From an uncultured Candidatus Saccharibacteria bacterium (GTDB lineage: Bacteria; Patescibacteriota; Minisyncoccia; Phycocordibacterales; CAYGHQ01), in assembly GCA_964349845.1 (NCBI GenBank), contig CAYGHQ010000002.1, positions 1-38,601 on the forward strand: 38,601 bases of DNA, in the 5' to 3' direction. The notes below the pieces were generated by a model. That model did not search any database. It was not told the origin of the DNA and saw only the letters and a program-made list of their open reading frames with translations. This document shows positions 1 to 37,040 of this stretch, one piece after another; within the stretch, counting starts at the first letter, position 1; the number at the start of each line of letters is the position of its first letter. The position numbers and the translations under genes were made by a program.

Positions 1-40
1 ATTATACTTATTTTAAACGATCGTTTAAAATAAGTCTAAT
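1..40. repeat. CGATCG-centred palindrome, copy of the 4556-4601 sequence (may be cut by the window edge)
   Basis: attatacttattttaaacgatcgtttaaaataagtctaat pairs around a20|t21 with one mismatch. The sequence matches the palindrome at 4556-4601. Confidence 0.85.
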
Positions 41-4318: not shown

Positions 4319-4560
4319 CGGCTTAGCCAAAACCTTAAATTTCTGCTGTCCTTCAAATTCTTCAGGATGGTGAAGGAATTGAATCCACGGATTGCATATT
4401 TTTCCTCAAGAGACAAACTCTGTAATGGTTTAGACGATAGGGATAAATCTGCAATCCTCGTTCGTCCACGGATGTCAACGATGACCTGTTGACTAGAAAT
4501 TTGATGGTTTGGGTAGCCGTTTTCACTCCGACTGGTTATTAAACAACGGTCAAAACCCAT
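4309..4560 (-). CDS. Hypothetical protein (83 aa), possibly a gene remnant
   Basis: ORF only. The ATG lies inside the 4556-4601 palindrome and the stop lies inside IR-R. No motif recognised. Confidence 0.3.
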   Translation of the reverse strand: MGFDRCLITSRSENGYPNHQISSQQVIVDIRGRTRIADLSLSSKPLQSLSLEEKYAIRGFNSFTILKNLKDSRNLRFWLSRFY

Positions 4561-4601
4561 TAGACTTATTTTAAACGATCGTTTAAAATAAGTCTAATGG
4601 G
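4556..4601. repeat. 46-bp perfect palindrome with an AACGATCGTT core
   Basis: ccattagacttattttaaacgatcgtttaaaataagtctaatgg pairs perfectly around 4578|4579. It lies just downstream of the mpg stop (minus strand). Confidence 0.9.
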
Positions 4602-5523: not shown

Positions 5524-5559
5524 AAACAAATTAAACGCTCTTGAAATAATTTAAAGAAA

Positions 5560-5587
5560 CATTCCGCATTGATGCGGAATGTTTTTT
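5560..5587 (+). terminator. Rho-independent terminator
   Basis: Stem cattccgca/tgcggaatg with loop ttga, followed by tttttt. Confidence 0.8.
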
Positions 5588-5684
5588 AAAATTATTCCAT
5601 TTAAATTGTTCCGATCGCGGTTCTCCACAGATTATCAACTTCCTAAAAATTTTGGAGGGAAATGCCTCGTGCTAAAATCAGGAC

Positions 5685-10931: not shown

Positions 10932-10999
10932 GGCCGGAAAAATAAAAAACTATTCTCAAATTCTTAAGAATTTGAGAATAGTTTTTTATTTTTCCGGCC
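10932..10999. terminator. 68-bp perfect palindrome between convergent genes (GGCCGGAAAAATAAAA clamp family)
   Basis: ggccggaaaaataaaaaactattctcaaattcttaagaatttgagaatagttttttatttttccggcc. It shares the outer 16-nt arms and the total length with 25283-25350. Confidence 0.8.
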
Positions 11000-14380: not shown

Positions 14381-14646
14381 ATAATAAATTTCTAACCATT
14401 TCGTTCTGGTAATTTCGCGCAGTATTTCGACCGCTTGCGGGATATCTTTCTTCCGCTAATGATTTACTGTGCTTGCCCCGCACCAATTTCACAAAATATC
14501 AATTACCACTAGAAGATATTTATACTTAAAACATCTTAAAAAGATAAGATAAATATCGGTAAAATTGGTGTTGGGGCTTGCCCTCCGTTTAATTGAAGGG
14601 CTAATATACTATAACAAATCTTTTGGCGAAATCAATACATGGGTGT

Positions 14647-14712
14647 GGAAAAGCCGGAAAATGAAAAAGGGACGCCCGTACGGGCGTCCCTTTTTCATTT
14701 TCCGGCTTTTCC
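14647..14712. terminator. 66-bp perfect palindrome after the 14718 gene
   Basis: ggaaaagccggaaaatgaaaaagggacgcccgtacgggcgtccctttttcattttccggcttttcc. Confidence 0.8.
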
Positions 14713-14717
14713 GCTAC

Positions 14718-16926: not shown

Positions 16927-17041
16927 CTATTTTTATTATATACGAAATCGGCAAAAAATGTGTGGATAAACAAAACCCCGCCGAAACCTTTGGTTTCGGC
17001 GGGGTTTTTAATAATGTTTTCCTAGTGGCTAGTCCCTAAAC

Positions 17042-17114
17042 CTTACAGGTTCTGTACACCTTTCGCATTCCGAGTACAGAATGCTCAAGGTCTTGCGAAG
17101 CTACGCTTCTCACC
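17042..17114. repeat. Family-A core unit
   Basis: cttacaggttctgtacacctttcgcattccgagtacagaatgctcaaggtcttgcgaagctacgcttctcaccc. Matches 17685-17765, 19427-19502 and 14271-14366. Confidence 0.85.
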
Positions 17115-17125
17115 CTAGTCCCTAT

Positions 17126-17518
17126 TTACGACTTCGGCGCTTCCGCAGGGGCAACACTTTCTTTAACGGCTTCGGTCGCAGGAGTTCCATTTAAAGCAAC
17201 CGGGGTTTTAGCTCCCTTATCCCCTTCTTTTTCCTCTTTCTTTATGGGCTTTTTCTTGGGAAGAGCGTTAACTTTCTTGCCTTCAATTATTTTTTTATCA
17301 ATAAGAAAATTATAGACCGTATTTGAAAGCTGGGCGCCTTTTTTCATCCAATCTTTCACCTTCTCCGCGTCAATTTCCTTGATATTATGGACCGGATCGT
17401 AAGTGCCCAAAACCTCCAAATAGCGTCCGCTTTTGGCGCTGTTTTGCGACTCCGTCAAAACGATGCGGAACACCGGAATATTCTTCCTGCCCACCCTTTG
17501 TAGCCTGATTTTTAACAT
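17126..17518 (-). CDS. rpsP: 30S ribosomal protein S16 with a Lys/Ala/Pro-rich C-terminal extension
   Basis: MLKIRLQRVGRKNIPVFRIVL...YLEVLGTYDP. Confidence 0.95.
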   Translation of the reverse strand: MLKIRLQRVGRKNIPVFRIVLTESQNSAKSGRYLEVLGTYDPVHNIKEIDAEKVKDWMKKGAQLSNTVYNFLIDKKIIEGKKVNALPKKKPIKKEEKEGDKGAKTPVALNGTPATEAVKESVAPAEAPKS

Positions 17519-17573
17519 AAGAGATATGGTAACAGAACATTAATGAAAAAGCAAATTAATTTTTCCAGAGTCT

Positions 17574-17791
17574 TCCTTCTCCCCTGCCCGAGGGGAGAAA
17601 GCCGGTACTCCGGCAAGAGGGGGGGGAGAAAGCAACCACTGAAGTTTCTCTCTTCCACCACCCCAGCTCGAAGACTCGCCCTTCTTACAGAAGCTGTACA
17701 CCTTTCACATTTTGGGTACAAAATGTTCAAGGTCTTGCGAAGCTCCTTAGGGTCGCTTCTAACCCTCCTCAGGCAGGAGGGAGGAAAACCC
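17574..17791. repeat. Family-A composite element (CCCCTGCCCGAGGGG module + core unit + CCTCAGGCAGGAGGG module)
   Basis: Collinear, in the same orientation, with 19350-19607. Confidence 0.85.
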
Positions 17792-17840
17792 TTTTAGAGT
17801 GTTCCGCGTCCGTTCCGCACAATTCTGCATTTACAAAAAA

Positions 17841-17870
17841 AGCGGGGAAACACTTTAGTGTTTCCCCGCT
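17841..17870 (-). terminator. Intrinsic terminator of the 180-aa ORF (hairpin h1)
   Basis: On the minus strand: agcggggaaacac-taaa-gtgtttccccgct followed by ttttttt. Confidence 0.8.
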
Positions 17871-17922
17871 CCGAACTATGGCGAACTGTAGCGTGCAACA
17901 CGAGACTATACTTCACGGCACT

Positions 17923-18465
17923 CTACCTAACTAAACAGCGAAACTGCCCGAAATGTTTCTTAGGAGGATGAAACAATCCAATTCCCGATTTTCCCGCTTC
18001 GTAAAAAATCTTTTGAAGCAAGGAATCCGGAATGGAATCTTCGGCAGAAACTTGAAACTCAAGTTTCCAATCTCTGAACATAGGCGCGACAACCAAAATC
18101 ATTCTGTTGGATTTTTGCATTGCATGTTGCCTACTTGTATAGACTGTCCAATTAAGTCCACCGGAACGGCTCTTTAGCTGAAGAAAACCTGCTCGCAAAT
18201 AAATTGCCGATTGCAATTTAGTGAAACTAACCTGTTTTCCATCAATAACAATTTTTGAACAAGCAACTCTGATTGAGTTCCAAAGCCATTCTGACGGAAC
18301 TGCGGGATTGCCTGATTCGTCTTTCATCATTTTTTCCAAAGCTTCTTTCTCCAAAGAAACGCCGTTTGAAGCGTGAGATGAAATCTCTTCCCGTCTTTGA
18401 TGATTCGCGATTTTATGCAGAAGCAAAGGGCTTGTACCCAAAAGCGCCAATGACAATGTTCTCAT
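17923..18465 (-). CDS. Orphan 180-aa protein, family not recognised
   Basis: ATG with aaaggaga SD 6-7 nt upstream and its own terminator. N-terminus LLGTSPLLLHK. The C-terminal GIGLFHPPKKHFGQF loop is faintly RAMP-like, which is a weak observation. Confidence 0.7.
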   Translation of the reverse strand: MRTLSLALLGTSPLLLHKIANHQRREEISSHASNGVSLEKEALEKMMKDESGNPAVPSEWLWNSIRVACSKIVIDGKQVSFTKLQSAIYLRAGFLQLKSRSGGLNWTVYTSRQHAMQKSNRMILVVAPMFRDWKLEFQVSAEDSIPDSLLQKIFYEAGKSGIGLFHPPKKHFGQFRCLVR

Positions 18466-18518
18466 AAATTCTCCTTTCTTTTTCTTTTTTTATCTTATCA
18501 TATCCGTGAAATTTCGTC

Positions 18519-18560
18519 AAATACAATCATTTTACGCGATCGCGTAAAATGATTGTATTT
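18519..18560. repeat. 42-bp perfect palindrome with a GCGATCGC core
   Basis: aaatacaatcattttacgcgatcgcgtaaaatgattgtattt, located between the array terminator and the 180-aa ORF. Confidence 0.9.
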
Positions 18561-18624
18561 AATTTTAATTTTTTCTTTATCTTCTGTTGCCATCTGCGTT
18601 TGTTCCTCATAGTTCCACATTTAT

Positions 18625-19160
18625 AAAAAAGCGGATGAAGATTTATCTTCATCCGCTCATTGCGTTAACAGACCGTGCTTCGGGGCGCTACACGCCACCG
18701 GAGATGGCTTCGCGCTACGCCGCCAAAAGAACTACAGCGAAACCCGCAAGCGGGTTTCGCTCCATACTCTACAATACTCTGCGGGAGAGAGCGCGACGAC
18801 ACGACACTGAACCGAAGAAGCTAGCGGGAAAAATTGTCTGACAATTTTTCCCGCTCCGTAGATGACCATACTAAGCCGGACATTGCTTGACCCAGCGCTA
18901 CCGAACCCGACACCAAATTTTAGCAAGAAATCATAAATGATTTCTTACTCCATACAAGACAACACATCACTACACAGCGCTTAACTCTAGGAGACACTGC
19001 ATCACTAGATAAACTAGCGAGAAAGGCAAACCTTCCTCGCTCCGAACGGAACTTGACCCCGCGTCACCGGACGTTGCGATGCCACGGCTTGGGACGCTGT
19101 GCCCAACATTGTAAATTTTATTTTCAAGGACCAAATGGCCTGTAAAAACAAACCTCTGTC
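18625..19160 (-). ncRNA. Candidate about 535-nt transcript of five hairpin-terminated units
   Basis: Hairpins at 19016-19041, 18922-18949, 18823-18855, 18736-18761 and 18631-18656. Stems are 11-15 bp, all different in sequence, and all but the terminator hairpin (18631-18656) framed AGC...GCT. Two stems have mismatches that become G.U pairs only on the minus strand. Only the last hairpin carries a T-run. Confidence 0.45.
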
Positions 19161-19166
19161 CTTTGA

Positions 19167-19195
19167 TATATAAGCATAAAATGATTTATTTGTAA
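19167..19195 (-). promoter_or_regulatory. Near-consensus promoter (TTACAA-17 nt-TATATA) facing the hairpin-unit array
   Basis: On the minus strand the -35 is at 19195-19190 and the -10 at 19172-19167, with an exact 17-nt spacer. Confidence 0.55.
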
Positions 19196-19239
19196 ATCTT
19201 GATTTATTTTTTAAATGTTTTTTCTTGGTTTTGGTTTTT

Positions 19240-19607
19240 CCCCTTCTCCCCTGCCTGAGGGGTGAGAAGCGACCTTAGGAAGCTCCGCAAGACTCTTCGA
19301 GCTCGAGTTCCCCGAGGGCCGAAGAGTGGACAGTTCCTGTAAGGAAGGTGTCGGTACTCCGACGGAAAGGTGGGAGAAAGTATTATTGAAAATCTCTCCC
19401 ACCACCCCTGCTCGAAGACTCGCTTCTTCTTACAGAAGCGGTATACCTTTCGCATTCTGACTACAGAATGCTCAAGGTCTTGCGAAGCTACGCTTCTCAC
19501 CCTCCTCAGGCAGGCCCGCCTGCCATCGCCCTGCCCACCTACCACGACTGCTGTCGGGCATGTCGGGCAAGGCGGAGGCAGTGGCGGGCAGGAGGGGAGG
19601 AAAACCC
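19240..19607. repeat. Family-A double element (two copies head to head) with a further 75-bp palindromic insert at 19515-19589
   Basis: 19240-19350 aligns with 1425-1572. 19350-19607 aligns with 17574-17791, except for the extra block cccgcctgcc...gtggcgggc. Confidence 0.85.
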
Positions 19608-19730
19608 TCACCCTCGCAGATCTCCAAAAATTAATTATTTGCTCTCCCTTCTTTCCACACAGTAGTGGGGGGGTCGAAAAAAAGAAAACCGCCGAGCGAA
19701 CTCAAGCGGTTTTTTGATTTTCTTATTCTC

Positions 19731-20360
19731 CTAGAGGCGGAGCTCCCCGCCAGCAACCAATTGTTTGGCTGTCCGTAGAAGCTCAAGAAAAGTGCTTCTC
19801 ATATCGTACGACCACTCTCCTTCATCCGGAGCGGTTTCTTCCGCATACCACAGAAGAGCGCTAGCCTCTTGCCCGCCAATCTTCGTGCCAAATGAGGTTT
19901 TGGTATAATCTCCATTGATTATCACCAAATGCGTGCTTGCGTAAGAATGTTTTCCCGGGTCGTGACAGAAACCGGAACGATTGACTCCGTTTATCTGCGG
20001 AGCGTACTGACGCATACAGACAGGATGATCCCACCCCAAGGGCAAGGAAATATGGAGACCGAGATCCTGTTTCCAATGCCGTTTAACGGCATCTTCCAGA
20101 GCCTCGTATCTATACACAACTCCTCCAATAAGAGCCAGTTTGTTCGGAAAACGCCCTGTTTTCCTTTTAATAACAGCGCCGTAAATTTTGCCGTCTTCCA
20201 TACGGACAGCAATACTGTCCGCCGTTCCTACTGCGCCAAGAATAGCACGCAAAGGATAAATTTCCGGATCAACGCTACCGTCGCAGTTGACCAGAGATAC
20301 AAGATTTTTCCTTTTGGCCAATTCAACAGCCAATTCTCTCGTAGAGATATTTTCAATCAT
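19731..20360 (-). CDS. NUDIX-fold protein with a degenerate Nudix box
   Basis: GGVVYRYEALEDAVKRHWKQDLG fits the GX5EX7R spacing but lacks the REUXEE glutamates. Confidence 0.55.
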   Translation of the reverse strand: MIENISTRELAVELAKRKNLVSLVNCDGSVDPEIYPLRAILGAVGTADSIAVRMEDGKIYGAVIKRKTGRFPNKLALIGGVVYRYEALEDAVKRHWKQDLGLHISLPLGWDHPVCMRQYAPQINGVNRSGFCHDPGKHSYASTHLVIINGDYTKTSFGTKIGGQEASALLWYAEETAPDEGEWSYDMRSTFLELLRTAKQLVAGGELRL

Positions 20361-20540: not shown

Positions 20541-20582
20541 CCTCCGCTCAAAATCATACGATCGTAAGATTTTGAGCGGAGG
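20541..20582. repeat. 42-bp palindrome with a TACGATCGTA core (1 mismatch)
   Basis: cctccgctcaaaatcatacgatcgtaagattttgagcggagg, downstream of the msrAB stop. Confidence 0.85.
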
Positions 20583-22191: not shown

Positions 22192-22363
22192 AAAAATTAA
22201 AGAGTAGTTAGTAGATAGTAGCTAGTAGGAAAACTAAAGATTTTTTCTACTTTCTATTTGCCACTGACTACCGCAAACTGTCTTATAATACTGTTCTCTG
22301 CCCCTATTTAGTGTAACTGGCTAAACACGCAATAAATTACATGCAAAGTTTTAAGCAAAAAAG

Positions 22364-25282: not shown

Positions 25283-25350
25283 GGCCGGAAAAATAAAATT
25301 TAGCAAAATGAAACGATCGTTTCATTTTGCTAAATTTTATTTTTCCGGCC
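25283..25350. terminator. 68-bp perfect palindrome (GGCCGGAAAAATAAAA clamp, AACGATCGTT core)
   Basis: ggccggaaaaataaaatttagcaaaatgaaacgatcgtttcattttgctaaattttatttttccggcc, located 30 nt after the DUF3999 stop. Confidence 0.85.
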
Positions 25351-28710: not shown

Positions 28711-28778
28711 GGCCGGAAAAATAAAATTTAGCAAAATGAAACGATCGTTTCATTTTGCTAAATTTCATTTTTCCGGCG
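28711..28778. terminator. Second copy of the 25283-25350 palindrome (2 substitutions)
   Basis: Identical left arm. The right arm has c for t at 28766 and g for c at 28778. It lies after the helicase stop. Confidence 0.85.
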
Positions 28779-31549: not shown

Positions 31550-31609
31550 CCGGCAAAAACGCCTCTTGCAAATCATCCATGGATGATTTGCAAGAGGCGT
31601 TTTTGCCGG
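31550..31609. terminator. 60-bp perfect palindrome
   Basis: ccggcaaaaacgcctcttgcaaatcatccatggatgatttgcaagaggcgtttttgccgg, after the 31623 gene stop. Confidence 0.8.
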
Positions 31610-36966: not shown

Positions 36967-37040
36967 TGGCTGCGGGGGAAGGAGTCGGACCTTCATACCA
37001 GGATTCAAAGTCCTGTGTCCTACCGTTAGACGACCCCGCA
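36967..37040 (-). tRNA. tRNA-Gln: tRNA-Gln (anticodon UUG), CCA encoded
   Basis: Minus strand: tgcgggg tc gtct aacggta ggac a cagga cTTTGaa tcctg gtat gaagg tccgact ccttc ccccgca g cca. The acceptor stem has 7 bp with U1-A72 and G73, as in bacterial tRNA-Gln. U8, a 4-bp D stem, a 5-bp anticodon stem and a 5-bp T stem are present. Total length is 74 nt. Confidence 0.9.

What the first reader, a model, noticed from the sequence alone, without database searches (positions are those of the whole stretch)
17841..19195. Promoter, five covarying hairpin units, terminator, 180-aa orphan ORF: a type III TA-like RNA-array/protein module
Seen in the sequence. (1) The minus strand has a near-consensus promoter, TTACAA-17-TATATA, at 19195-19167. 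(2) Five consecutive units follow, each a 61-79-nt body plus a hairpin. The hairpins are at 19016-19041, 18922-18949, 18823-18855, 18736-18761 and 18631-18656, with 87-105-nt spacing. (3) The stems are 11-15 bp and share almost no sequence. All except the array-ending one (18631-18656) are framed AGC(G/A)...(C/T)GCT and are preceded on the minus strand by GG (tatGG|AGC, tacGG|AGC, ttcGG|AGC). (4) The two imperfect stems (18922-18949 and 19016-19041) have C.A or A.C mismatches on the plus strand. These become G.U wobbles only on the minus strand, which is the signature of selection on a minus-strand RNA fold. (5) Only the last array hairpin and the one after the ORF (17841-17870) carry a T-run, so they are real terminators. 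(6) The ORF (17923-18465) has a strong SD and a sixth unit-like 3' UTR ending in ttcGG|AGC-hairpin. (7) A 42-bp GCGATCGC-core palindrome sits between the array terminator and the ORF. Established knowledge: type III TA loci (toxIN, cptIN, tenpIN families) have the order promoter, tandem RNA repeats, Rho-independent terminator, then a roughly 170-200-aa endoRNase toxin that processes and binds the repeats. Inference: this may be an analogous RNA-repeat/protein pair. Here the repeats are long and conserved in structure rather than in sequence, which I do not know from any described family. ORF180 shows no similarity I can recognise to ToxN or AbiQ. Its C-terminal GIG...FGQF loop is only faintly RAMP-like.
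Basis: partly seen in the sequence, partly recalled or inferred. Interest (0 to 1): 0.8.

Follow-up and report, generated by a model that had tools for sequence, protein, structure and literature searches.

The report
VIPR RNA-guided system in a CPR bacterium
The hairpin array and its 180-aa neighbour are a VIPR system, a CRISPR-like RNA-guided DNA-binding module first described in 2026 preprints; its six guide RNAs are built from about 12 five-base repeats and a hairpin, and it is not a toxin-antitoxin pair.

Summary
The type III toxin-antitoxin reading does not hold.

Each unit body is a tract of 10-13 pentamers (x-G-Y-N-N), in fixed register with a GG|AGC...GCU hairpin. In-phase GY fills 58 of 72 pentamers (P = 4e-47). 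This periodicity occurs only at this locus, and only on the minus strand.
- **Conservation.** The same pattern holds in 142 units from 24 related Patescibacteria loci: G 72-82% (falling to 54-64% in the two most distal repeats) and Y at least 94%, every 5 nt.
- **The protein.** ORF180 folds confidently (pLDDT 90) as a minimal Cas7-like RAMP. Its family profile hits the solved "SUSP1 Vipr protein" (PDB 36pp, E = 3e-4).
- **Identity.** This matches VIPR (Viral Interference Programmable Repeat; bioRxiv 10.64898/2026.04.26.720920 and .720927). In VIPR, a ~20 kDa Vipr protein coats a ~100-nt vrRNA made of 9-16 pentamer repeats plus a structured tail, and reads DNA through the variable NN positions. 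The authors list YNNNG as an alternative repeat consensus.
- **Relatives.** Most related loci also carry a CasDinG-like helicase and a second Vipr paralog. The window has neither.
- **Targets.** None were found.

Verdict: a new member of a recently described kind.

The parts
19167..19195 (-). Possible array promoter, TTACAA-17-TATATA.
   Evidence: Read directly from the sequence. It matches sigma-70 poorly (3/6 and 4/6) and the scan did not call it. It lies about 55 nt upstream of the first pentamer tract.
19016..19108 (-). vrRNA1. Pentamer tract 19108-19042 (13 repeats, 2 degenerate), then GG and hairpin 19041-19016.
   Evidence: Register shown; hairpin. The body is about 80% identical to a unit in locus L003, where the protein is only 51% identical.
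18922..19006 (-). vrRNA2. Tract 19006-18950 (11 repeats), then GG and hairpin 18949-18922, which has one U.G wobble.
18823..18912 (-). vrRNA3. Tract 18912-18856, then GG and hairpin 18855-18823 (16-bp stem).
   Evidence: The body is conserved with L002 unit 3579.
18736..18813 (-). vrRNA4. Tract 18813-18762 (10 repeats), then GG and hairpin 18761-18736.
18624..18724 (-). vrRNA5. Tract 18724-18658 (13 repeats, 3 degenerate), then TG and hairpin 18657-18630, then a T-run. This is the array terminator.
18516..18563 (.). 48-bp palindrome with a GCGATCGC core, between the array and the gene. It may act as an operator or bidirectional terminator. It is not specific to the module.
   Evidence: Similar CGATCG-centred palindromes lie at 1-40, 4556-4601, 20541-20582, 25283-25350 and 28712-28777.
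18492..18520 (-). Promoter-like site for the vipr gene, TTGACG-17-TAAGAT with an upstream TG.
   Evidence: It is the only promoter-like site the scan found in 17600-19500. It overlaps the end of the palindrome.
17923..18465 (-). vipr gene (ORF180). It encodes a 180-aa minimal RAMP protein, with an AGGAG Shine-Dalgarno sequence upstream.
   Evidence: AF2 model pLDDT 90, pTM 0.84. Foldseek top hits are Csm3/Cas7, Cas7-11 and type VII Cas7, E about 1e-5. The family HMM hits PDB 36pp_D 'SUSP1 Vipr protein' at E = 2.9e-4. It matches phrog_4652 at E = 2e-7. There are 59 homologues.
17834..17937 (-). vrRNA6. Tract 17937-17871 (13 repeats), which overlaps the last ~15 nt of the ORF. Then GG, hairpin 17870-17841 and a T-run terminator.

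Best explanation
The locus is a VIPR (Viral Interference Programmable Repeat) system in the chromosome of a Patescibacteria (CPR) bacterium.

Anatomy. It has one vipr gene (ORF180) and six vrRNA genes, five in an upstream array and one downstream. Each vrRNA is about 90-105 nt. It consists of a short A/U-rich leader, 10-13 pentamers of the form x-G-Y-N-N, then GG and a 26-33 nt hairpin closed by A-U, G-C and C-G pairs.

Mechanism, inferred by homology to the SUSP1 and P. fulva systems. One Vipr protomer binds each pentamer, so about 12 protomers form a helical filament. The filament sequesters the conserved G and Y bases and presents the variable NN dinucleotides. These read double-stranded DNA through a gapped code (NN, skip, NN, ...). 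The result is silencing of a target, most likely a phage or another mobile element.

What is shown here. The RNA anatomy, its strand specificity, its conserved linkage to the protein, and the protein's RAMP fold and relationship to Vipr.

What is inferred. Transcription and processing, filament assembly, DNA targeting, and the identity of the targets.
For: **Pentamer code in the window.** GT autocorrelation peaks at lags 5, 10, 15, 20, 25 and 30 (17, 17, 9, 12, 11, 9), against 0-7 at other lags. Period-5 windows occur only at this locus and only on the minus strand. In-phase GY fills 58 of 72 pentamers against a background of 0.091, P = 4e-47.

**Pentamer code across relatives.** In 142 units, G is 72-82% at -6, -11 ... 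-46, falling to 64% and 54% at -51 and -56. Y is at least 94% at -5 to -55. Both are phase-locked to the hairpin, and the other positions are near-uniform. Unit spacing is quantised in steps of 5 nt: 84, 89, 94, 99, 104.

**RNA-level folding.** Stem mismatches are G.T 144 against A.C 16, and GG precedes 119 of 149 hairpins. Each stem position shows 4-6 pair types.

**Linkage to the protein.** Units flank ORF180 homologues on the gene strand in 26 related loci.

**The protein.**
- AF2 pLDDT is 90.
- Foldseek finds Csm3/Cas7 hits with probability 1.00 and TM 0.5-0.6. Among viral models the top hits have TM 0.70 and 0.62, the second named 'Cas system-associated RAMP superfamily protein'.
- The family HMM hits SUSP1 Vipr (36pp_D) at E = 2.9e-4. 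The N-terminal strand with H17 aligns, as does the G-loop (GIGLFHPPKKHFGQF against GVGDWRP--RFGRF).
- The paralogous p228 family hits SUSP1 Vipr at E = 3e-7. It aligns to the ORF180 family with hhalign probability 97%.

**Literature.**
- The preprint 10.64898/2026.04.26.720920 defines VIPR as a ~20 kDa RAMP plus ~100-nt vrRNAs of 9-16 pentamer repeats with a structured 3' tail.
- It lists YNNNG as an alternative consensus. It reports helicase or nuclease accessory genes in types III-V, and 25% of systems in cellular chromosomes.
- The cryo-EM preprint 10.64898/2026.04.26.720927 shows one protomer per repeat, 12 protomers in all, with H17 and the G-loop Asp reading G1.
Against: - The link to solved Vipr is weak at the sequence level. 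The E-value is 3e-4, it rests mainly on the C-terminal 60 residues, and tblastn against phage genomes finds nothing.
- The canonical first G of GGY is not conserved here (A 29-38%, G 14-35%).
- The 3' tail is a plain hairpin whose stem sequence differs between units. In the SUSP1 clade the tail is an invariant pseudoknot.
- No accessory (vap) gene lies next to the window's vipr. The neighbours are rpsP and a Nudix-like gene.
- No target was found under any gapped rule in the window or in the held loci. Exact NNx patterns for four vrRNAs found nothing in IMG/VR.
- Expression, processing and binding are untested.
Confidence: 0.88

Rival explanations
1. Type III toxin-antitoxin-like module. ORF180 would be a toxic endoRNase. 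The repeat RNA would be cut into units that bind and neutralise it.
For: The layout is promoter, tandem RNA units, terminator, then a ~180-aa protein gene. The RNA-protein linkage is conserved. RAMP proteins include RNases such as Cas6 and Csm3, and the family has invariant His and Arg residues (H17, H22, R25, H114).
Against: - The top 50 Foldseek hits shown are all CRISPR-complex chains, chiefly Cas7-type RAMPs. None is ToxN or AbiQ.
- There is no Pfam hit and no PADLOC defence or TA model hit.
- The units are 87-105 nt with no sequence identity to one another. ToxI-type repeats are near-identical and 34-40 nt long.
- A TA model does not explain the pentamer G-Y register with free N positions. 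It matches VIPR guide RNAs.
- vrRNAs also follow the gene and flank helicase genes in relatives.
Confidence: 0.04
2. Degenerate or derived type IV-like CRISPR-Cas remnant. The array would be a fossil CRISPR array whose repeats have drifted while keeping their hairpins. ORF180 would be a shrunken Csf2/Cas7 working with a CasDinG helicase.
For: - In 14 of about 16 related loci with enough upstream DNA, the gene upstream of the ORF180 homologue is a 610-640 aa helicase.
- The two helicases scanned (L004, L007) match PADLOC typeIV_DinG best, at E = 2e-37 and nearly full length.
- The fold is Cas7-like.
- Hairpin plus variable segment resembles repeat plus spacer.
Against: - There are no identical repeats.
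- No Cas1/2, Cas5, Cas6 or Cas8 profile hits were found for the p228 or ORF180 families.
- The periodicity is 5 nt with fixed G-Y. Acquired spacers cannot have this, and Cas7 filaments use a 6-nt period.
- The window has no helicase.
- The published phylogeny places Vipr outside all CRISPR RAMPs.

This rival is better seen as an evolutionary neighbour of the best explanation than as an alternative to it.
Confidence: 0.06
3. Ordinary dispersed intergenic repeats or terminator hairpins with no specific tie to ORF180.
For: The window carries other dispersed elements, including CGATCG-core palindromes and a 75-nt repeat family that flanks the module.
Against: AGC..GCT hairpins and period-5 tracts occur nowhere else in the 38.6 kb window. 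In the related loci shown, they flank ORF180 homologues and their partner genes, always on the gene strand.
Confidence: 0.02

Closest known systems
VIPR systems (Vipr protein plus vrRNA). Experimental models are Escherichia phage SUSP1 and the Pseudomonas fulva prophage (type II). Sources: bioRxiv 10.64898/2026.04.26.720920 and 10.64898/2026.04.26.720927; PDB 36pp.
   Same: - A single small RAMP of about 20 kDa with an RRM core, thumb and G-loop.
- Guide RNAs of about 100 nt, made of 9-16 pentamer repeats followed by a structured 3' tail.
- vrRNAs arranged both upstream and downstream of the gene.
- No CRISPR array and no adaptation genes.
- H17 conserved.
- About 12 repeats per RNA, the same number as the 12 protomers in the SUSP1 structure.
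   Different: - The repeat is x-G-Y-N-N (the authors' 'YNNNG' alternative), not G-G-Y-N-N.
- The G-loop reads GIGLFHPPKK-FGQF instead of GVGDWRP-RFGRF. The Asp that reads G1 in SUSP1 is Leu here, which fits the loss of G1 (inference).
- The tail is a plain hairpin with covarying stems that differ between units. Only GG and the three closing pairs are fixed. SUSP1 has an invariant pseudoknot.
- The host is a cellular CPR chromosome, and there is no vap gene beside vipr.
- Relatives carry two Vipr paralogs and a CasDinG-like helicase.
Type IV-A CRISPR-Cas (Csf complex plus CasDinG/Csf4).
   Same: A Cas7-like RAMP. In related loci there is an adjacent DinG-family helicase whose best defence-model match is typeIV_DinG. 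Interference without a nuclease is plausible.
   Different: - No CRISPR repeats.
- No Cas5, Cas6 or Cas8.
- A 5-nt RNA register with a fixed sequence, rather than a 6-nt register on acquired spacers.
- The protein is about half the size of Csf2.
- The window itself has no helicase.
Type III toxin-antitoxin systems (ToxIN, CptIN, TenpIN).
   Same: The order promoter, tandem RNA units, terminator, then a ~180-aa protein that binds its own RNA.
   Different: - The protein fold is RAMP, not ToxN.
- Units are 87-105 nt and dissimilar in sequence.
- The RNA is a guide scaffold, not an antitoxin pseudoknot.
- There is no evidence of toxicity.
TRAP-trp leader RNA (11 G/UAG triplets at about 5-nt spacing).
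   Same: A protein oligomer reads a short conserved motif repeated about every 5 nt along an RNA.
   Different: The fold is unrelated. TRAP forms a ring that regulates attenuation and has no guide function. I considered it only as an analogy before VIPR was identified.

Membership tests
VIPR | Vipr protein: a small (~20 kDa) single-RRM RAMP with a G-loop and thumb, related to SUSP1 Vipr. | tested here: met
   The protein is 180 aa. The AF2 model has pLDDT 90. Foldseek finds Csm3/Cas7 at E about 1e-5 and probability 1.00. The family HMM hits 36pp_D 'SUSP1 Vipr protein' at E = 2.9e-4 with H17 and the G-loop aligned. The paralogue family A2 hits it at E = 3e-7 and aligns to A1 at 97% probability.
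VIPR | vrRNA: 9-16 tandem pentamer repeats with conserved G/Y positions and hypervariable N positions. | tested here: met
   There are 10-13 pentamers per unit, and 58 of 72 have GY in phase (P = 4e-47). In 142 units from relatives, G is 72-82% (54-64% in the two most distal repeats) and Y is at least 94% every 5 nt, with the N positions near-uniform.
VIPR | Canonical GGY/NN (YNNGG) motif. | tested here: not met
   The position before the conserved G is A 29-38% and G 14-35%. The motif is x-G-Y-N-N. This equals the 'YNNNG' alternative consensus the authors report for some types. The locus therefore fits the family as the authors define it, but not the type II motif.
VIPR | Structured 3' tail capping the repeat tract. 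| tested here: met
   A 26-33 nt hairpin follows directly after GG. Covariation and G.U asymmetry support RNA folding. The tail is a simple hairpin with a variable stem, unlike the SUSP1 pseudoknot.
VIPR | Minimal locus, with vipr flanked by ncRNA-bearing intergenic regions and no CRISPR array or cas1/cas2. | tested here: met
   Five vrRNAs lie upstream and one downstream. There are no identical direct repeats. The neighbours are rpsP, a sigma factor, a Nudix-like gene and MsrAB.
VIPR | Accessory vap gene next to vipr. | tested here: not met
   There is no adjacent accessory gene, and no helicase or p228 homologue anywhere in the window. In 14 of about 16 informative related loci a DinG-like helicase lies upstream. 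The preprint calls two-gene loci typical rather than universal.
VIPR | Processed vrRNAs of about 100 nt that co-purify with Vipr in a one-protomer-per-repeat filament. | not testable with these tools
   This needs small-RNA sequencing, pull-down or cryo-EM.
VIPR | Gapped (1-nt skip) recognition of DNA targets in competing mobile elements. | tested here: inconclusive
   No match beyond the shuffled null was found in the window or in the held loci. Exact NNx patterns for vr1, vr2, vr3 and vr6 gave 0 hits in IMG/VR. Mismatch-tolerant searches of large collections were not possible.
Type III toxin-antitoxin (ToxIN/CptIN/TenpIN) | Toxin with a ToxN/AbiQ endoRNase fold. | tested here: not met
   The top 50 Foldseek PDB hits shown are all CRISPR-complex chains, chiefly Cas7-type RAMPs. 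There is no Pfam or PADLOC hit.
Type III toxin-antitoxin (ToxIN/CptIN/TenpIN) | Antitoxin made of near-identical tandem direct repeats of about 34-40 nt. | tested here: not met
   Units are 87-105 nt. No direct-repeat family was found among them.
Type III toxin-antitoxin (ToxIN/CptIN/TenpIN) | Rho-independent terminator between the RNA array and the protein gene. | tested here: met
   The hairpin at 18657-18630 is followed by a T-run.
Type IV-A CRISPR-Cas | CRISPR array of conserved repeats with acquired spacers. | tested here: not met
   The hairpin sequences differ between units, and the 'spacers' carry a fixed 5-nt G-Y register.
Type IV-A CRISPR-Cas | Csf1, Csf2, Csf3 and Cas6 subunits. | tested here: not met
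   ORF180 and p228 have no PADLOC or NCBIfam Cas profile hit, and ORF180 and the L004 p228 have no Pfam hit.
Type IV-A CRISPR-Cas | CasDinG (Csf4) helicase. | tested here: not met
   It is absent from the window. It is present in related loci, where PADLOC typeIV_DinG PDLC01439 scores E = 2e-37.

The most novel reading that the evidence does not exclude
This Patescibacteria clade may be a distinct VIPR lineage that links VIPR to type IV-A CRISPR. Three features point that way.
- The full loci carry two Vipr paralogs. One (p228) has the canonical GDWRP G-loop. The other (the ORF180 family) has an LFHPPKK loop.
- They carry a CasDinG-like helicase.
- Their vrRNAs have a relaxed code (x-G-Y-N-N) and covarying hairpin tails.

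The window would then hold a stripped-down, helicase-free version that acts as a pure RNA-guided repressor in a cellular chromosome. It might regulate host or episymbiont genes rather than phages. The held text of the preprints does not describe this architecture, but its figures and data files, which I could not read, may do so.
Probability: 0.3. Interest if true: 0.7.

Novelty: new member of a known kind. Interest (0 to 1): 0.55.

Why it matters
VIPR is a newly reported mode of RNA-guided DNA recognition and has been proposed as the ancestor of the CRISPR RAMP proteins.

This locus is a clean cellular example from the Candidate Phyla Radiation, a group thought to be largely devoid of CRISPR. 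It has six well-delimited guide RNAs and a variant repeat code. The G-loop substitution (Asp to Leu) matches the loss of the first conserved G.

Its relatives combine two Vipr paralogs with a CasDinG-like helicase. That bears directly on how VIPR-like systems might have given rise to class 1 CRISPR effectors. It also offers a very small protein and guide RNA for programmable DNA binding.

For the scan itself, the lesson is that a raw-sequence reader picked out a true RNA-protein system but missed its defining periodicity.

Tried and rejected
- **Rfam.** At gathering thresholds over the whole window, only tRNA-Gln at 36970-37040 matched. With permissive E-values over 17000-19800, only sub-threshold microRNA-like hairpin hits appeared. 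The array belongs to no Rfam 15 family.
- **tRNA scan.** Nothing in the array.
- **Pfam, NCBIfam and PADLOC on ORF180.** No hits.
- **tblastn of ORF180 against 50,697 phage genomes.** No match.
- **Sequence clustering of unit bodies.** Only a few cross-locus families emerged. Most bodies have diverged beyond recognition.
- **Ideas dropped.** I considered attC sites, REP/RAYT elements, group II intron domain V, CsrB-like sponges and a TRAP-like ring binder. I dropped them once the fold search and the PDB profile hit pointed to RAMP and Vipr.
- **Target prediction, all negative.**
  - Complementary and gapped searches in the window.
  - Skip rules 0-3 against all held loci, which found only homologous vrRNAs.
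  - Exact NNx patterns of 22 specified bases for vr1, vr2, vr3 and vr6 in IMG/VR.
- **Literature.** A first search (Cas7-like, DinG, Patescibacteria) was swamped by authors named Ding. A review of DinG-like proteins mentions no such CPR system.
- **VIPR type.** The held text and supplement of the preprint do not say which VIPR type carries the helicase or covers CPR. The type could not be assigned.
Full report
**What is in the sequence**

On the minus strand, 19200-17830 holds the following, in order:
- a weak promoter-like site (TTACAA-17-TATATA, 19195-19167);
- five consecutive units, each ending in a hairpin (19041-19016, 18949-18922, 18855-18823, 18761-18736, 18657-18630), the last followed by a T-run;
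- a 48-bp palindrome (18516-18563), overlapped by the only consensus-scan promoter in the region (TTGACG-17-TAAGAT, 18520-18492);
- a 180-codon ORF with an AGGAG Shine-Dalgarno sequence (18465-17923);
- a sixth unit, whose hairpin (17870-17841) is followed by a T-run.

- The promoter is not near-consensus (3/6 and 4/6 matches).
- The array-ending hairpin is also framed AGCG...CGCT.
- The palindrome belongs to a window-wide class of CGATCG-centred palindromes.

AGC...GCT hairpins occur nowhere else in the 38.6 kb window.

The bodies between hairpins have a strict 5-nt periodicity.
- GT autocorrelation on the minus strand is 17 at lags 5 and 10, and 9-12 at lags 15-30. Other lags give 0-7.
- Windows with at least 6 in-phase GT per 60 nt occur only at 19021-18752 and 17961-17862. 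They are found only on the minus strand, across the whole window.
- Anchored on the hairpin start, each unit reads as 10-13 pentamers x-G-Y-N-N, followed by GG (TG in unit 5) and the hairpin.
- GY is in phase in 58 of 72 pentamers. The background frequency is 0.091, giving a binomial P of 4e-47.
- The sixth tract starts inside the last ~15 nt of the ORF.

**The protein**

- ORF180 has no Pfam, NCBIfam or PADLOC hit. It matches phrog_4652 (function unknown) over its full length.
- It has 59 homologues at 42-60% identity, all hypothetical proteins from metagenomes. In the eight genome-collection loci the homologues sit in Patescibacteria or unclassified-bacterium MAGs.
- Residues H17, H22, R25, W60, H114 and W133, and the C-terminal GIGLFHPPKK-FG-F, are invariant.
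- AlphaFold2 with this alignment gives pLDDT 90 and pTM 0.84.
- Foldseek against the PDB returns only CRISPR-complex chains, chiefly Cas7-type RAMPs, in the top 50: Csm3, Cas7-11 and type VII Cas7 (E about 1e-5, probability 1.00, TM 0.5-0.6).
- Against viral models, the top hits are an uncharacterised virus protein (TM 0.70) and a 'Cas system-associated RAMP superfamily protein'.

A ToxN/AbiQ fold is excluded.

**Conservation of the RNA-protein pairing**

I fetched 27 related loci, 26 of which carry close homologues of ORF180.
- In these loci, hairpins of the same type (GG|AGC...GCT) lie on the gene strand, upstream and downstream of the ORF180 homologue. The last one before or after a gene usually carries a T-run.
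- I pooled 142 non-redundant units and aligned them on the hairpin start. G is 72-82% at -6, -11 ... -46, falling to 64% and 54% at -51 and -56. Pyrimidine is at least 94% at -5 to -55. The three other positions are close to uniform. That makes about 12 pentamers, locked in phase to the hairpin.
- Unit spacing is quantised in 5-nt steps (84, 89, 94, 99, 104), and the hairpins are mostly 26-28 nt.
- Stems covary, with 4-6 Watson-Crick or wobble pair types per position.
- With a strand-symmetric detector, mismatches are G.T 144 against A.C 16, and GG precedes 119 of 149 hairpins. This is strong evidence for selection on an RNA fold of the gene strand.
- Most bodies have diverged beyond recognition. 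Window unit 1 and unit 3 are exceptions. Each has a clear homologue in a locus whose protein is only 51-56% identical, so at least some variable positions carry conserved information.

**Identification**

A profile of the ORF180 family hits one solved structure, PDB 36pp chain D, 'SUSP1 Vipr protein', at E = 2.9e-4. The N-terminal strand aligns (MRTLSLALLGTSPLLLH against MKLLNIKITGTRPFLSH, with H17 in both), as does the G-loop region.

Two 2026 preprints describe VIPR (Viral Interference Programmable Repeat) systems.
- A ~20 kDa ancestral RAMP (Vipr) works with ~100-nt vrRNAs made of 9-16 pentamer repeats (YNNGG), capped by a structured 3' tail.
- vrRNAs lie singly or in arrays beside the gene.
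- There are seven types, and types III-V carry helicase or nuclease accessory genes. About 25% of systems are in cellular chromosomes.
- Some loci use the alternative repeat consensuses NNNGG, YNNNG and NNNNG (10.64898/2026.04.26.720920).
- The cryo-EM study shows one protomer per repeat, 12 in all, forming a helical filament. The filament sequesters GGY and presents NN for gapped pairing that skips every third DNA base. H17 and the G-loop Asp read G1, and an Arg and a Trp read G2 (10.64898/2026.04.26.720927).

The window's units fit this description point by point, and their repeat is the YNNNG variant. In ORF180 the G-loop Asp is replaced by Leu. This is consistent with the loss of the first G, although that link is my inference.

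**Context in relatives**

- In 14 of about 16 loci with enough upstream DNA, a 610-640 aa DinG-family helicase lies upstream of the ORF180 homologue. Scanned for two of them (L004 and L007), it matches PADLOC typeIV_DinG best, at E = 2e-37 and nearly full length.
- Where the sequence extends far enough (L004/L020, L005, L006, L019), a 228-235 aa protein (p228) lies further upstream. It is a second Vipr paralog. Its profile hits SUSP1 Vipr at E = 3e-7, it has the canonical GxxDWRP...RFGRF G-loop, and it aligns to the ORF180 family with hhalign probability 97%.
- vrRNA units sit between all of these genes. In some loci they also sit beside PemK-like and NYN-domain genes.
- The window, and locus L011, have neither the helicase nor p228. 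The contig is only about 38.7 kb, so these genes could lie elsewhere in the genome.
- A distant phage relative (L009, 23% identity) has a 7-pentamer GYNNN tract immediately upstream of its gene.

**Mechanism and its limits**

By homology, I propose the following.
1. The array is transcribed.
2. It is cut into six vrRNAs.
3. Each is coated by about 10-13 ORF180 protomers.
4. The filament binds double-stranded DNA through the variable dinucleotides and silences the target.

None of these steps is shown here.

I could not find targets. Nothing rose above the shuffled null in the window. Nothing turned up in the held loci under skip rules 0-3. Exact NNx patterns for four vrRNAs gave no hit in IMG/VR. 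For this variant it is unknown whether two or three positions per pentamer pair with the target.

**Verdict**

The finding is real and biologically rich. It is a member of a kind of system already described in April-June 2026. The type III toxin-antitoxin interpretation is rejected. A type IV CRISPR remnant is a related but poorer description.

What may still be new is the clade-specific architecture: the relaxed code, covarying hairpin tails, two paralogs and a CasDinG-like helicase. I could not check this against the preprint's figures and data files.

Noticed in passing
window 1-40, 4556-4601, 18516-18563, 20541-20582, 25283-25350, 28712-28777; also 10932-10999, 14645-14714, 31550-31609: Long perfect palindromes (20-35 bp arms) sit in intergenic regions. 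Several are centred on CGATCG. The copies at 25283-25350 and 28712-28777 are near-identical (GGCCGGAAAAATAAAATTTAGCAAAATGAAACGATCG...). They are probably bidirectional terminators or a palindromic mobile element family. The one inside the VIPR locus is a member of this class.
   Followed up: partly
window 17042-17116, 17684-17758, 19429-19503 (direct) and 19260-19344 (inverted): A dispersed repeat of about 75-150 nt (core CTCAAGGTCTTGCGAAGCT; 3 matches against 0 expected) brackets both rpsP and the VIPR module. The copies at 17732-17765 and 19260-19293 form an inverted pair around the module. It may be a MITE-like element or mark an insertion boundary. No Rfam match.
   Followed up: partly
window 17923-17937: The pentamer tract of the sixth vrRNA begins inside the last ~15 nt of the vipr coding sequence, so the 3' end of the mRNA and the guide RNA overlap. 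The downstream unit shows the same overlap in L011 (tract 5531-5605, gene end 5549).
   Followed up: partly
L004 817-3584, L005 101-3207, L006 1-3241, L019 339-3570, L007 1966-3804 and others: Related Patescibacteria loci carry a CasDinG-like helicase (PADLOC typeIV_DinG, E = 2e-37) just upstream of the ORF180 homologue. Several also carry a second Vipr paralog (p228) with the canonical GDWRP G-loop. vrRNA units lie between every gene.
   Followed up: yes
L007 282-674 and 1090-1578; L001 729-1079; L025 162-551: PemK/MazF-like toxin genes, and in L007 an NYN-domain RNase gene, are interleaved with vrRNA units in some related loci. This may reflect a defence-island context or a role in vrRNA processing.
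   Followed up: no
all related loci (142 units): Spacing between successive hairpin starts is quantised in 5-nt steps (84, 89, 94, 99, 104, 109 nt). Units therefore gain or lose whole pentamers.
   Followed up: partly
window 22224-22251: An isolated hairpin, AGTAGGAAAA...TTTTCTACT, resembles the vrRNA tail frame. It has no GG prefix and no period-5 tract next to it, so it is probably unrelated.
   Followed up: no
L009 3936-4000 (IMG/VR UViG_3300005077_000420): A phage contig encodes a 23%-identical relative of ORF180. A single 7-pentamer GYNNN tract lies immediately upstream of the gene. This suggests that phrog_4652 as a whole corresponds to phage Vipr proteins.
   Followed up: partly
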